This document shows positions 14,012-31,639 of a stretch of DNA of 64,000 bases, piece after piece (the first letter of the stretch is position 1; each line of letters begins with the position of its first letter). The notes beneath the pieces are model-generated. The model was not told the DNA's origin. It saw only the letters and a program-made list of their open reading frames with translations, and searched no databases. The translations under genes were made by a program, and so were the position numbers. The DNA is taken from NCBI GenBank assembly GCA_963693365.1, contig CAVNZM010000014.1:5394001-5458000 (forward strand), written 5' to 3'. The stretch comes from Amoebidium appalachense. Its lineage: Eukaryota > Protista > Ichthyosporea.

Positions 14012-14183
14012 CCCCCCCCCCCCCCCCCCCCAACCCTACTTCCCTGTTTCCCTCTCTCACACTCTTTCTGTCTCTCCTCTCGGCACACAAAGGTTTCTGG
14101 AAGGCGACTATTCGATCAACAACTGTAGGGGATTTGGTTTGTCCACCTTTATTACACTGAGCACTTGTTTTAGCAACAAAATA

Positions 14184-14311
14184 TGAGCGACCGAGATTCG
14201 CATAATGACGTACTGCGCAAGCTGCACCGTTTTCTTCTTAGATACAAGTGCGCAAAGCTCTCACTATCCCTTAAGATATGCTTTCATGCATGCTGGGTGG
14301 GTGGTCGCCCA
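14184..14311 (-). ncRNA. Putative small RNA gene, uncharacterised family, copy 1
   Basis: Minus-strand terminal stem UGGGCGACC/GGUCGCUCA with a G-U pair. Upstream GTCTCACAATA (14364-14374) at offset 53, downstream TTGCTAAAA (14168-14176). Confidence 0.6.
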
Positions 14312-15361
14312 GAACAATTACCTCGGCCATAGGTATAGTGCCATAGCAGCATGGGTGGAGTTTTATTGTGAGACCACTGGCTGCTAAAATTCATTATAAA
14401 ATAGAGGGGGTTACCTTCACATTCTCGTTGGCTATAAATGAGGTTGAAAAAAAAATTAAACGTGCTTGACTCATTGGTAATCAAGCGAATCGAATCATGT
14501 TGGACTATAGATTGTCCCCAGTGGCACTTGTGCCCGTATAGCTAAATCATGATGTACTGGCTTAGACCGTTGAAAAACTTCGAGGTAAAATGTGCAAACG
14601 CAGTGTGTGTGTGTGTGTGGGGGGGGGGGGGGGGGGGGGGGGGGGGGGGGGCTAAAGTCAACGACAAAGATCTACCAGACACCCCCCTCCCCCCCTCCCC
14701 CCTCCCCCCCCCCCCCCCCCCCCCCCCCCCCCCCCCCCCCCCCCCCCACACACACACACACACACACACACACACACACACACACACAAAAAAAAAAAAA
14801 AAAAAAAAAAAAAAGGAAAAAAAAAAAAAAAAGGAACCAAAAAAACAAACCACACCGTGACCGGCTGGCCCAACCACTTACTCCGCAAAAACATTCGTTC
14901 CTCTCTCTGCTCCTTCTGTTGATTGCTTTGCAGTGAAGAAGAGTCTAATTTGACACGTCCAATCGGTTAATTCTGCAGCCTCCTTGAGTGACTGTAAGTG
15001 AAACCCCCCCCCTCCCTCCCCCTCCCCCCCCCCCCCCCCCCCCCCCGGGACCCCCTGGCGCAAGGCTTCTGTACATGCGCCAAATAAAGGCTTCTTATTT
15101 TGATTAAAAAAGGGAAAGTACCAAAAATAAACGGGAAAGTAGAATTCAAAGGCGGGCACACACTTTTTGTTTCCCGGTCATCCCCTCTTTCCCTTTTTCT
15201 GTACCTCCTCTCTGTACACAAAGGTTTCTGGAGCATGGCCAATAGATGTGCATTGATCCCAATGATTTCTCGAGTAACAACTGAGTGAATATGGTTCTTC
15301 CAACTTTTATCATAATATAGCTCCACCGCACATTTATCAAACTTGTTTTAGCAACACACTG

Positions 15362-15483
15362 TGAGCGACCTAAATAGCATAATGGCACTGCACAAGCACC
15401 ATATTTGTGATAGACACTAGTGCGCAAAGCCCTCACTATTCCTTTGGAAAGGCTTGCATGCACGCTGGGTGGGTGGTCGCTCA
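15362..15483 (-). ncRNA. Putative small RNA gene, copy 2
   Basis: Perfect 9-bp terminal stem TGAGCGACC/GGTCGCTCA. Upstream GTCCCGCAATC (15536-15546, offset 53), inner UGCAUGCAAGC/GCUUGUGCA, TTGCTAAAA downstream. Confidence 0.62.
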
Positions 15484-16546
15484 AATAACAACTATCTCAA
15501 CCATGGGTAGTGGAGCAGTAGCGTGGCAAGAGTTTGATTGCGGGACGGGTTTGACTGCAGGTTTCTTGTTGGTTGAAAAATAATGAAATGTGCCTGCCTT
15601 GTCCGTTCAAATAATGCGAATCATGCTCGACGATAGATTGTGTGCATGCGCATAGTCCTTGTGCGCACATGTAGCTATTTGTGCTGTGGCTTTGGAAAAA
15701 GAAGCTTGAAGGAGGAAGGGAAATGTGCAAAAGCTGTACATCCCCCTCCCCCCAACCCTCTCCTTCGACTCCACCCCCCTCTCTCCTCTCTCTCTCTCTC
15801 TCTCTCTCTCTCTCTCTCTCTCTCACTCTCAGAGCTCTCTCTCTCTCTCTCTCTCTCTCTCCCTCTCTTTCTCTTTCTCTCTCTCTCCCTTTCTCCCCCT
15901 CTCTCCCCCTCTCTCCCTCTCCCCCCCCACCCCCACCTCTCCCTCTCTCTCCTTCTCTTCTCTCTCTCTCACCCCTTTCTCTCTCCCCCCCCCCCTCAAG
16001 ATCTCCCTCTCTCCCTCTCTCCCTCTCTCTCTCCCTGGGCACCCCCTCCCCTCGTCCCCTTTGCACACTCGGGCACGCGCGCACACACGCACGGCACACA
16101 CACGGCACACACACACACACACAACGAACCAACAAACACAAACAAGCGCCCGCCTGCACGTGTGCACATACACACAAATACACACTTAAACACGCGCGCG
16201 CGCACACACGTACACCAGTGACATGCAGACACAGAAAAAAAAAAGGTGTGTGTGTGTGGGGGGGGGGGGGGGGGGGGGGGGGGGGGGGGACGACAATCCT
16301 CCAGACACACATTGGTCCTCCCCTCCCCTCCCCCCTCCCCCCCTCCCTGGGGACCATACCTCACACTCCACCCTTTCTCTTCTCACAAACCTCAACCTTC
16401 TCAAGGTACTATTAGCATATTGGTGATGAGAGGTATGTGTAGCTTCCACTGCAGCTATGGGCACATACCGTGCTGCAATTTCTGTCCCACAATCAAAGAT
16501 CATAACCCGTTTTGCTAATCTTTCCCGTCGCTGAAACCATTATGGC

Positions 16547-16638
16547 TGAGCAACCGTCCAGTTATGATGCAAGGTGCGCCTCGATGTGAGGGCTATGCAG
16601 TGAGCTCATTGTGCTCATGGTCGTATTCTGTTTGCCCA
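16547..16638 (+). ncRNA. Putative small RNA gene, copy 3
   Basis: GTCCCACAATC 16484-16494, offset 53. Imperfect stem TGAGCAA/TTGCCCA, TGCA..CCTC..GAGG..TGCA core, TTGCTGAAG 16648-16656. Confidence 0.55.
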
Positions 16639-29615: not shown

Positions 29616-29707
29616 TGGGCAACTGTCTAACGGCTGTGCAGTATGCAAATCACTCAGCAAATCGGGGTGGCATGCAAGGCTTTTTGTGCTGTGTTGCATG
29701 TTTGCCC
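29616..29707 (+). ncRNA. Putative small RNA gene, copy 12
   Basis: GCCCCACATTT 29554-29564, offset 52. Stem GGGCAA/TTGCCC, TGCA at +21, CTGCTGAAA 29716-29724. Confidence 0.52.
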
Positions 29708-30504
29708 CTTTTATACTGCTGAAATCTGATTTTTTTTTTGGAAAAAAAATTTTTTTTGGAAAAAAAAAAAAGCAGGTACTCGTAGTGACATCCCCCCCTT
29801 GCGACATCTCCATCTTTCCCGCACCTTTCCTCCCCCCCTCCCTCATCGATCCCCCGCCCCTTGAATACGCACAGCCACCCACCCGCCCACCAAAGCACAC
29901 AAACAGTACACAAGCACACTGTTTTTGGAGTTACTCTTCGCCTTTTCATCTGTGTATCATTGTCATACTCTAAATACACTTAAAAAAATGGGGAAGTGAT
30001 GCCCCATAACATGAAAATGGGTGTGTGTGTGTGTGTGTGTGTATGGGGGGAAGTTGTATGCAACACAGTATGCATTCAGTGCCGTACATACGTATGCATG
30101 GTACCCTCGAGCTCACGTTCCTGTCCATGTCGCACTTGGATTCCTGTCTCCTCGTCTCTTCAGAACTTGATGTGCAATCCCCTACTAGTAAAGCTCTAAA
30201 TAGTATTACTTGGAACGATGTTTTAGAGCCCCCCCCCCCCCCCCCCTCCCCCCCCCCCTCCCCCCCCCTCCGCTCTCCCTCACTTCCAGCCCCCTTCCTC
30301 CTCCCCCCTCCCCTCCCCCCCTCCCCCCCCCTCTCTCCCTCCCGTCCCGCCCCCTTCCTTTCCCCCTCCCCCCCCCCTCTTTCCCCCCCTTCCTTTTTCC
30401 CTCTCCCCTTTGGTGCACACACACACACACACACACACACACACACTAACTATGCCTGTGTTTAAAGGCCAACCCAATAGACAAGACAACCCACATAGTA
30501 ATGC

Positions 30505-30576
30505 TAGGAAATTCCGAGCCAAAACCCCATACCTGAGACTGGTCTCTCCTTGCTTCGAGTAAACAGCGTAAACCCC
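30505..30576 (+). repeat. Repeat family D fragment
   Basis: TTCCGAGC..ACCCCATACCTGAGACTGGTCTCTC..CGAGTAAACAGCGTAAACCCC is an inverted match to 31641-31712. Confidence 0.7.
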
Positions 30577-30795
30577 AGTGCACATCAACTTCATCATTTG
30601 ATTTATCTGTATGCTCGTTACAACCCTGGACCCAAAAAAAAAAAAAAAAAAAAAAAAAAAACTTTTCCTGCGCGGGACTCCCTTTACCTTGCTGATATCC
30701 TTAAGTCTGGAAAACTTCTGGGTTACTAATAGGTGGTAGCAATAAAACAATTATGTATTTTTTATGGAACATAAGTTCTTTTTAGCAACATGGTA

Positions 30796-30887
30796 TGGGC
30801 AAACTTTATTGTCACCTGGAACCTCGATGCACAGGAAAACTGCATGCCCCTTCGTGGCCGTACGTTGAACAGGTGGGAGTTCGCCCG
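30796..30887 (-). ncRNA. Putative small RNA gene, copy 13
   Basis: ATCCCACAATC (30940-30950, offset 53). 9-bp stem GGGCGAACU/AGUUUGCCC, compensatory relative to GGGCGACC/GGUCGCUC. TGCA..TGCA, TTGCTAAA (30781-30788). Confidence 0.62.
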
Positions 30888-31639
30888 GTCAAAAGTACCT
30901 CAACAAGGGCTATAATAGATGTCGGCTTGCCAGGATTTCGATTGTGGGATGCATATTATGAAGGTCGTTGGCTTATACATTGAGTTCCACATTTGTTACA
31001 AACGCTAACGCGTATGGGGTGTGGATCGAAACCACTAGTGGCCCATGATCCGTGCACGTGATGCACCAAAAAAACAAAAAACAAAAAAACAAAAAAAAAA
31101 AAAAAATAAAGAAAGATTTTAAAATGAAGGAGAGAAAGAAAATTGGCACTGTGCACACGGCCTGAGGCAAACAATCCAGGAACTTCTGTTCGATTGCTCC
31201 AGAAGGAATAATAGTGGGGCAAAATAAAAAAATAGGTTTATTGATATACGTTGGGAATTGATCAAGAATTGTCACAGTTCAAACAGGTGCCACGTAGAAA
31301 GGGTTTTACTGTACCCCATGCGTCTCTTTGATTGCGTGTGTGTGCGTTACGGGCAAGAGCTGGAATGGGGAAGGCGGTGGTGGGGGTGGTGTTGTGGGGG
31401 TGTTTGGTGGTGGTGGTGGTGGTTGGAGGGGGAGGGGGAGGGGGCCCCGGGGTGGGGAGTGGTTGGTGGTGGTGGTGTGTGTGTGTGTGTTTGCATGTGT
31501 GTGTGTTTTGTGTGTTTCTTGGGGAGGGGGAGGGGTGTGACCCCTGGGCCATTGAATTACACACACAGACATCAAACACAAGACGTGACATCATCTGGGC
31601 AGGCCTTTCCTCCATACTGTGCCCAACTTTAGAAACTGA

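What the first reader, a model, noticed from the sequence alone, without database searches (positions are those of the whole stretch)
14160..30950. Cluster of at least 13 putative small-RNA genes of an unrecognised family with snRNA-type architecture
Seen in sequence: the ~20 kb gap between CHAF1A and NPRL3 carries 13 divergent modules (6 minus, 7 plus) with the same layout. Each has a TCCCACAATC-like element, then an offset of 49-57 nt (52-53 in 10 of 13) whose sequence varies, then a 75-130 nt unit that opens GGGC(G/A)A and closes T(T/C)GCYC, then TTGCTRAA about 7-11 nt further on. The terminal stem co-varies (GGGCGACC/GGUCGCUC, GGGCAACC/GGUUGCCC, GGGCGAACU/AGUUUGCCC). Its G-U wobbles fall on the strand predicted by the upstream element. 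Established knowledge: TCCCA-core elements ~60 nt upstream drive snRNA-type genes (plant USE RTCCCACATCG; Dictyostelium DUSE WCCCAYAA in front of snRNAs and Class I RNAs), and Pol II snRNA genes have a 3' box just downstream. Inference: these are independently transcribed structured ncRNAs. I cannot match them to U snRNAs, tRNA, 5S, Y or vault RNA, so they may be a lineage-specific, expanded RNA class analogous to Dictyostelium Class I RNAs or nematode sbRNAs.
Basis: partly seen in the sequence, partly recalled or inferred. Interest (0 to 1): 0.92.

Follow-up and report, generated by a model that had tools for sequence, protein, structure and literature searches.

The report
Thirteen snRNA-type small-RNA genes in Amoebidium
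In Amoebidium, a single-celled relative of animals, one intergenic stretch holds 13 strongly diverged copies of the same layout (snRNA-type promoter word, end-paired unit of 74-126 bases, fixed downstream word) that match no catalogued RNA family and are likely the genes of an undescribed class of small RNAs, although no transcript has been seen.

Summary
Observation confirmed. The window is from Amoebidium (Ichthyosporea). Between convergent CHAF1A and NPRL3 lie 13 modules (6 minus, 7 plus): TCCCACAATC-like word, 49-57 nt, a 74-126 nt unit closed by a covarying 6-9 bp stem, 7-11 nt, TTGCTRAA-like word. All 5 exact upstream words and all 8 exact downstream words of the 64 kb window sit in modules. 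New here: a TGGYTGR word near -20, pyrimidine|G starts, at least two UGCA per unit (35 versus 16 expected), and a C/A-rich segment behind the 5' stem. The first 8 bases of the upstream word equal the promoter of a Dictyostelium Class I RNA gene and fit published snRNA USE words. No TATA, Sm site, B box, common oligo-T, target-site duplication or Rfam match. Best reading: a new family of SNAPc-type, probably Pol II, protein-binding RNAs that works like dictyostelid Class I RNAs; it fails Class I membership, with only a weak echo of their 11-nt motif. Expression is unshown (no contig on the one module tested); the organism's own U snRNA promoters could not be examined. The scan's earlier notes held nothing on this family.

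The parts
14169..14373 (-). m1: upstream word 14364-14373 (TCTCACAATA), unit 14185-14310 (126 nt), downstream word 14169-14176
15347..15545 (-). m2: upstream word 15536-15545, unit 15363-15482 (120 nt), downstream word 15347-15354
16485..16655 (+). m3: exact upstream word 16485-16494, unit 16548-16637 (90 nt), downstream word 16648-16655
17707..17879 (+). m4: exact upstream word 17707-17716, unit 17770-17860 (91 nt; 10 of 11 match to the Class I motif behind the 5' stem), downstream word 17872-17879
18832..19034 (-). m5: exact upstream word 19025-19034, offset 57, unit 18850-18967 (118 nt), downstream word TTGCTCAA 18832-18839
20061..20219 (+). m6: exact upstream word 20061-20070, unit 20123-20201 (79 nt, perfect 8 bp stem), diverged downstream word 20212-20219
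21005..21162 (-). m7: upstream word 21153-21162, offset 49, unit 21021-21103 (83 nt), downstream word 21005-21012
   Evidence: no contig laid here
23027..23178 (+). m8: upstream word 23027-23036, unit 23089-23162 (74 nt), downstream word TTGCCGAA 23171-23178
24263..24438 (+). m9: weak upstream word 24263-24272, offset 55, unit 24328-24423 (96 nt), downstream word 24431-24438; weakest copy, possible pseudogene
25859..26022 (+). m10: upstream word 25859-25868, unit 25922-26004 (83 nt; terminal stem not favoured in folding), downstream word 26015-26022
27755..27912 (-). m11: upstream word 27903-27912, unit 27771-27850 (80 nt), diverged downstream word 27755-27762
29555..29723 (+). m12: diverged upstream word 29555-29564 (CCCCACATTT), unit 29617-29707 (91 nt), downstream word 29716-29723; possible pseudogene
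30781..30949 (-). m13: exact upstream word 30940-30949, unit 30797-30886 (90 nt, 9 bp stem), downstream word 30781-30788
1173..11739 (+). left neighbour (context): coding exons of CHAF1A, matching the EukProt Amoebidium parasiticum protein
32940..40840 (-). right neighbour (context): coding exons of NPRL3, approximate limits, pointing towards the cluster
   Evidence: Pfam NPR3, E 0.00019, one exon, under the curated cut-off; last exons read by recalled likeness

Best explanation
The gap between CHAF1A and NPRL3 in Amoebidium holds 13 diverged copies of one four-part layout that are likely separately transcribed genes of an uncatalogued small-RNA family. Inferred mechanism: SNAPc binds the TCCCACAATC word 59-67 nt (mostly 62-63) before the start; with no TATA box Pol II starts at the pyrimidine|G that opens the stem; the TTGCTRAA word sets the 3' end as an snRNA 3' box does; the 74-126 nt RNA pairs its ends and offers a C/A-rich segment and a UGCA/UGCA helix to an RNA-binding protein, while the rest is free to drift. 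It would act as a protein-binding (scaffold or sponge) RNA, as proposed for dictyostelid Class I RNAs. The cluster grew by local duplication from a plus-strand and a minus-strand lineage; some copies (m9, m10, m12) may be dead. Shown: layout, spacing, stem covariation, conserved words, divergence. Inferred: transcription, polymerase, ends, protein partner, function.
For: Short words and fixed distances are kept while the DNA between is near background: mean pairwise identity 0.82 in the upstream word, 0.54 spacer, 0.53 unit, 0.51 and 0.47 flanks; end branches up to 0.75 changes per column. Only the distance inside the stem varies (74-126), as for a looped-out RNA. Stem covariation. First 8 bases of the upstream word are identical to the DUSE listed for D. 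discoideum DdR-21, TCCCACAA, and fit USE words TCCCAWCATC, ACCCAYAW, GNCCCAYW of other eukaryotes (PMC8287931 Table 1); DUSE lies about 60 nt upstream (PMC7919456). [quoted passage not shown] Pyrimidine before the first G in 11 of 13, one base earlier in the other 2. TGGYTGR within 1 mismatch at -23..-18 in 10 of 13 versus 0.55 in shuffles (motif drawn from these sequences). UGCA 35 versus 16.4 expected, at least two in 13 of 13, at +21 in 7 of 13; two such words pair with probability 0.5 or more in 10 of 13. 600-700 bp paralogous blocks at 61-66% identity.
Against: No transcript seen: 0 contigs on m7 in 4 runs, and no run held over 6% of the words of 14100-24000, a share that simple repeats can explain; these runs were not shown to be Amoebidium small-RNA libraries. 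Whole-unit folding is unremarkable: z at or under -2 in only 4 of 13, predicted strand better in only 8 of 13, m10 stem not formed. The UGCA helix shows almost no covariation and RNAalifold finds only the terminal 6 bp. TTGCTRAA does not fit the human 3' box GTTYN0-3AARRYAGA, and the review read calls Integrator metazoan-only. No relative was found in metagenome or viral contigs. SNAPc, U snRNA promoters and copies elsewhere in this genome were not examined.
Confidence: 0.62

Rival explanations
1. They are true, deeply diverged homologues of dictyostelid Class I RNAs, so the class goes back to the common ancestor of Amoebozoa and opisthokonts. Same mechanism as the best explanation, different history.
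For: Same promoter word and distance, terminal stem, variable interior, intergenic clusters of diverged genes. In the register starting at base 7, C6 11 of 13, C9 9 of 13, A11 7 of 13 match the invariant Class I positions; m4 matches 10 of 11; joint column permutation P 0.012, 0.029 for best of three registers. Kjellin's table S4 lists a rejected Capsaspora candidate with the full motif, paired ends and TCCCACAC 74 nt upstream.
Against: T3 2 of 13 and A10 3 of 13; P rises to 0.046 and 0.12 without m4, the copy that prompted the test. No AAG start or CUGU end, 74-126 nt versus about 60, GC 46-59% versus 32-41%. No Class I family among the Rfam matches listed. Similar model hits occur in Arabidopsis and C. 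elegans. Only Capsaspora, not Sphaeroforma, Creolimax or Amoebidium, is named in that paper's supplements.
Confidence: 0.12
2. They are an extremely diverged, expanded form of a known snRNA-promoter RNA (Y/sbRNA, vault, U7, minor U snRNA, single-hairpin H/ACA) that Rfam models miss.
For: Y and vault RNAs also pair their ends and sit in clusters (recalled). Rfam models are thin for unicellular holozoans (inference).
Against: No unit on its own strand matched any family at E up to 10 in narrow scans covering 12 of 13 units (m3 only, where 38 of 188 rows were not listed). No Sm site, B box, C box, TATA or common oligo-T; no bulged C in the stem and no common ACA after it (features recalled).
Confidence: 0.1
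3. They are USE-driven precursors cut by Drosha/Dicer into 20-25 nt guides, the variable interiors giving different guides, as in Cuscuta trans-species miRNA loci.
For: Cuscuta interface miRNA loci share a USE (bioRxiv 2022.07.06.498962, abstract). A. parasiticum has Pasha and Dicer-type domains (PMC6206976, passages). Interiors are variable.
Against: Predicted folds are multibranched with short helices and no long hairpin; z near zero in most; longest match of any unit elsewhere in the window is 14 nt or less.
Confidence: 0.08
4. Not RNA genes: decayed copies of one MITE-, SINE- or Helitron-like insertion spread by local duplication, or a DNA-level array of protein-binding sites.
For: The stem reads like a short terminal inverted repeat; flanks are paralogous over 600-700 bp; TC at the start and CTRA at the end recall Helitron ends (recalled); no expression evidence.
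Against: The best-kept words lie outside the inverted repeat at fixed distances while spacers have decayed to background; a 3 bp duplication flanks only 1 of 13 units; no copy outside 14.1-31.0 kb in the window, unlike a real dispersed repeat in the same window at 97-98% identity; G-U bias to one strand; no A/T insertion context at the would-be Helitron ends.
Confidence: 0.08

Closest known systems
Class I RNAs of dictyostelid amoebae (Kjellin et al. 2021, PMC7919456)
   Same: TCCCAYAA-type promoter word about 60 nt upstream, short stem joining the ends, 5' G, C/A-rich segment behind the 5' stem, variable interior, intergenic clusters of non-identical genes.
   Different: 74-126 nt and 46-59% GC instead of about 60 nt and 32-41%; T3 and A10 of the 11-nt motif, the AAG start and the CUGU end are missing; extra UGCA pair, TGGYTGR word and TTGCTRAA word; no common T-run; found in an opisthokont, where the class was reported absent.
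Pol II snRNA genes with type 3 / USE promoters (Fajkus et al. 2021, PMC8287931; Guiro and Murphy 2017, PMC5493778)
   Same: USE-like word, no TATA, short intronless unit, a conserved word just after the 3' end, several copies.
   Different: The RNA is not U1, U2, U4, U5, U11, U12, U3 or U7 by Rfam; no Sm site; downstream word unlike the human 3' box; copies far more diverged than snRNA paralogues.
USE-driven trans-species miRNA loci of Cuscuta campestris (bioRxiv 2022.07.06.498962)
   Same: Lineage-specific set of sequence-variable small-RNA genes that share an snRNA promoter word.
   Different: Those are miRNA hairpins with U6-like Pol III features; these lack long hairpins, TATA and common oligo-T.
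Y RNAs, nematode sbRNAs, vault RNAs (features recalled, no call)
   Same: Ends paired, 70-130 nt, clustered separate genes.
   Different: No bulged-C Ro60 site, no oligo-U tail, no TATA or B box, no Rfam match.

Membership tests
Dictyostelid Class I RNA | DUSE about 60 nt upstream of the start | tested here: met
   TCCCACAA equals the DUSE listed for DdR-21; 49-57 nt from word end to stem
Dictyostelid Class I RNA | Short stem joining 5' and 3' ends, opened by G | tested here: met
   6-9 bp covarying stem, G1 in 13 of 13
Dictyostelid Class I RNA | 11-nt motif with invariant T3, C6, C9, A10, A11 | tested here: not met
   2, 11, 9, 3, 7 of 13 in the best register; partial match P 0.012-0.12
Dictyostelid Class I RNA | AAG start and CUGU end | tested here: not met
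   bases before the G are mostly T/C; no CTGT after the stem
Dictyostelid Class I RNA | About 60 nt, 32-41% GC | tested here: not met
   74-126 nt, 46-59% GC
Dictyostelid Class I RNA | Intergenic clusters of non-identical genes | tested here: met
Dictyostelid Class I RNA | Abundant, developmentally regulated transcripts bound by Rnp1A/CIBP | not testable with these tools
   only contigs of runs not shown to suit the question; none on m7
Spliceosomal Sm-class snRNA (U1, U2, U4, U5, U11, U12) | Rfam model match | tested here: not met
   one U4 hit (16.2 bits, cut-off 46) lies on the other strand upstream of m2
Spliceosomal Sm-class snRNA (U1, U2, U4, U5, U11, U12) | Sm site RAU3-6GR; U1 5' guide (patterns recalled) | tested here: not met
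   1 of 13 and 0 of 13
Pol II snRNA-type transcription unit | USE/PSE without TATA | tested here: met
   by likeness to other eukaryotes
Pol II snRNA-type transcription unit | Same upstream word and 3' box at this organism's own U snRNA genes | not testable with these tools
   no genome held
Pol II snRNA-type transcription unit | 3' box just downstream | tested here: inconclusive
   conserved word 7-11 nt after the stem, unlike the human consensus
Y RNA / sbRNA / vault RNA | Pol III signs: TATA or B box, oligo-T end (recalled) | tested here: not met
   0 of 13 TATA, 0 of 13 B box, 4 of 13 T-runs
Y RNA / sbRNA / vault RNA | Ro60 or vault proteins in the organism | not tested
   one paper search gave nothing usable
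C/D or H/ACA snoRNA | C box; ACA after the closing stem (recalled) | tested here: not met
   0 of 13 exact C boxes; no common ACA
pri-miRNA | Long near-continuous hairpin | tested here: not met
MITE / SINE / Helitron | Target-site duplication, uniform likeness along the element, tail or A/T insertion site (recalled) | tested here: not met
MITE / SINE / Helitron | Dispersal through the genome | tested here: inconclusive
   none outside the cluster in 64 kb; rest of genome not held

The most novel reading that the evidence does not exclude
These are opisthokont homologues of Class I RNAs: a DUSE/USE-driven, end-paired RNA class already present in the ancestor of Amoebozoa and opisthokonts, expanded separately in dictyostelids and in Amoebidium, so Class I RNAs were not an invention of dictyostelid multicellularity.
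Probability: 0.12. Interest if true: 0.9.

Novelty: new variant of a known kind. Interest (0 to 1): 0.76.

Why it matters
If expressed, this is a new multigene class of mid-sized RNAs in a close relative of animals, a group for which the papers read here report miRNAs and lincRNAs only. [quoted passage not shown]

Tried and rejected
No whole genome was held, so U snRNA genes and dispersed copies could not be searched. Sequencing runs: 8 listed, shares 0.00-0.06; 2.8-7.2% of the words of that stretch are simple repeats, so the shares say nothing; 4 runs laid on 20850-21525 gave no contig; no read evidence was obtained for any other module. Pattern scan of metagenome contigs: 28 loci, none microsatellite-rich, only 2 with a closing-stem word; the best of these (L028) lies among bacterial-type ORFs and was judged chance. 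Rfam E-value hits in the cluster fall on poly-G/poly-C and CA repeats. No tRNA. No antisense target longer than 14 nt in the window. Integron attC, telomerase RNA, 5S and 7SK likenesses were considered from recall and dropped (no invariant AAC/GTT, no telomeric template, no model match). Earlier findings of the scan: nothing on this family or genome. Paper searches for a description of this family found none: (listings only) and passages; subscription journals are mostly not covered. A paper search for SNAPc/Integrator in unicellular holozoans gave nothing usable.
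Full report
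Organism and setting. A CHAF1A exon found a protein at 100% identity that EukProt names Amoebidium parasiticum; laid back on the window it covers exons from 1173 to 11739 on the plus strand (Pfam CAF1A). The window is therefore Amoebidium, an ichthyosporean; the species was not fixed. NPRL3 lies on the minus strand (Pfam NPR3 on one exon, E 0.00019, under the curated cut-off; last exons near 33.8 and 33.0 kb read by recalled likeness). The cluster at 14.1-31.0 kb thus lies between two convergent genes, the modules separated by microsatellites and homopolymer runs. No whole genome was held.

Checking the observation. All 13 modules were located: 6 minus, 7 plus, offsets 49-57 (52-53 in 10 of 13), units 74-126 nt, 7-11 nt to the downstream word. 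Each word alone is only modestly over chance in 64 kb (15 versus 9.0; 8 versus 3.0), but every exact upstream word (5 of 5) and every exact downstream word (8 of 8) in the window belongs to a module. A four-part score trained without the tested copy gave 32-53 bits for 11 copies, 28.3 for m12 and 19.4 for m9, against 28.2 as the highest value in 60 local shuffles. Neither this score nor a covariance model built from the units (its 13 training rows match by construction) found a further copy.

Anatomy. Pairwise identity is 0.82 in the upstream word but 0.54 in the spacer, 0.53 in the unit and about 0.5 in the flanks. A tree has end branches up to 0.75 changes per column and groups m1/m2/m5, m7/m11, m3/m6, m4/m10/m12; the split into plus and minus copies is weak (57/78). 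Paralogous blocks of 600-700 bp at 61-66% identity surround related copies, so the cluster grew by old local duplication while short words and two outer distances were kept. The terminal stem pairs in 88.5% of 104 cells, with two-sided changes at 4 of 8 pairs; 0 of 500 shuffles reached the covariation score and slid registers fell to 31-52% (relatedness inflates the first control). G-U pairs outnumber A-C 11 to 2 on the predicted strand, about 8 to 2 as separate events by my hand count. Against structure: only 4 of 13 units fold with z at or under -2, the predicted strand is better in 8 of 13, the m10 stem is not favoured, RNAalifold keeps only 6 terminal pairs, and the UGCA helix is conserved in sequence with hardly any covariation.

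What it is not. No Rfam family at the curated thresholds. At E up to 10, none of the 150 rows listed of 188 overlaps a unit, and narrow scans over 12 of the 13 units gave no match on a unit's own span and strand that is more than noise; a 16-bit U4 hit lies on the other strand upstream of m2. No tRNA. No TATA, B box, C box or U1 5' end in any copy, an Sm-like word in 1 of 13, T-runs after the stem in 4 of 13, a 3 bp flanking duplication in 1 of 13 (these patterns are recalled). A true dispersed repeat in the same window looks quite different: 97-98% identical, 5'-shortened copies.

Promoter. The supplement of PMC7919456 lists TCCCACAA as the DUSE of D. discoideum DdR-21, the first 8 bases of the word here; the paper places DUSE about 60 nt before the start and finds it essential for expression. 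Table 1 of PMC8287931 gives USE words TCCCAWCATC, ACCCAYAW, GNCCCAYW, CCCRTAA for red and green algae and Rhizaria, says SNAPc binds them, and that TATA-less forms are Pol II targets in humans and green algae. PMC5493778 describes PSE, 3' box and the TATA switch; its 3' box consensus does not match TTGCTRAA and it calls Integrator metazoan-only. So the promoter reading rests on likeness to other eukaryotes and the 3' box reading on position alone.

Class I comparison. The layout is that of Class I RNAs. With the motif register starting at base 7 the invariant Class I positions score T3 2, C6 11, C9 9, A10 3, A11 7 of 13; m4 matches 10 of 11. Permuting columns jointly gives P 0.012 (0.029 for best of three registers), but 0.046 and 0.12 without m4, which prompted the test. 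Size, GC, AAG start and CUGU end do not fit. Table S4 of that paper holds a rejected Capsaspora candidate with the full motif, paired ends and TCCCACAC 74 nt upstream, next to comparable chance-like hits in Arabidopsis and C. elegans. Membership fails; homology stays a minority reading.

Expression and relatives. The run search returned 8 runs with shares of 0.00-0.06, all as contigs; simple repeats make up 2.8-7.2% of the words. Four runs laid on m7 gave nothing; they were not shown to be Amoebidium or to hold short RNAs, so this is no evidence of silence, and no other module was tested. Pattern scans gave 28 metagenome loci and 120 viral loci, which I judge chance: none is microsatellite-rich among the 28, and the best with a closing stem lies among bacterial-type ORFs.

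Mechanism. Most likely (0.62): SNAPc on the USE, Pol II start at the stem G, 3' end set by the downstream word, an end-paired RNA presenting a C/A-rich segment and a UGCA helix to a protein, function as scaffold or sponge; all these steps are inferred. Rivals: Class I homologue (0.12), unrecognised known RNA (0.10), Drosha/Dicer precursor as in Cuscuta (0.08), transposon remnant or DNA motif array (0.08).

Papers, what was seen. PMC7919456: passages, section 8, first part of the Discussion, table S4 whole, supplement search rows, first quarter of table S5; its figures with the logos were not visible. PMC8287931: passages with Table 1; its supplement with USE words per taxon was not read and may bear on opisthokonts. 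PMC5493778: section 2 and passages. bioRxiv 2022.07.06.498962: abstract. PMC6206976, PMC11286789, bioRxiv 2024.01.08.574619: passages. PMC11109566: first part. No description of this family turned up in searches (listings only).

Verdict. A real, selectively maintained cluster with snRNA-type gene layout and no catalogued family; new variant of a known kind (USE-driven, end-paired multigene RNA families); interest 0.76, held back by the lack of any transcript evidence.

Noticed in passing
window 13214-14011; copies at 46835-47631, 4757-5094, 53689-53998, 61740-61920; older minus-strand pieces 48453-48631, 63033-63173: A young dispersed repeat of about 800 bp (97-98% identical copies) shortened at one end and sharing the other end before a C run; looks like a non-LTR retroelement remnant; two of its open frames had no Pfam match.
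   Followed up: partly
window 30507-30576, 31643-31832, 63845-64000: A short repeat present in inverted copies at 85-86% identity, two of them either side of m13; possibly a MITE.
   Followed up: no
window 15645 (-), 19151 (-), about 14520 (-): A second USE-like word (GCACACAATC, weaker at m1) 100-147 nt upstream of the main word in the m1/m2/m5 subfamily, with no stem start at the expected distance; could be a distal element or a duplication remnant.
   Followed up: no
window 15499-15665 (+): Weak U4 model match (16.2 bits, E 0.25, cut-off 46) on the strand opposite m2's promoter; no USE before it; judged chance.
   Followed up: partly
window about 45000-63300 (+): Exons of a Sec7-domain ARF GEF (BIG/GBF type) gene.
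   Followed up: partly
modules m1, m2, m5, m7, m13 versus m3, m4, m9, m10, m12: The downstream word follows strand and lineage: mostly TTGCTAAA in minus copies and TTGCTGAA in plus copies.
   Followed up: partly
PMC7919456 table S4, row cow_can_1 (Capsaspora): A rejected Class I candidate in a holozoan with the full 11-nt motif, complementary ends and TCCCACAC 74 nt upstream; worth rechecking against Capsaspora small-RNA data.
   Followed up: no
window 27060-27095 and 31880-31940: Short imperfect palindromes built on GGATATTCC/GAATATCC words, seen by eye.
   Followed up: no
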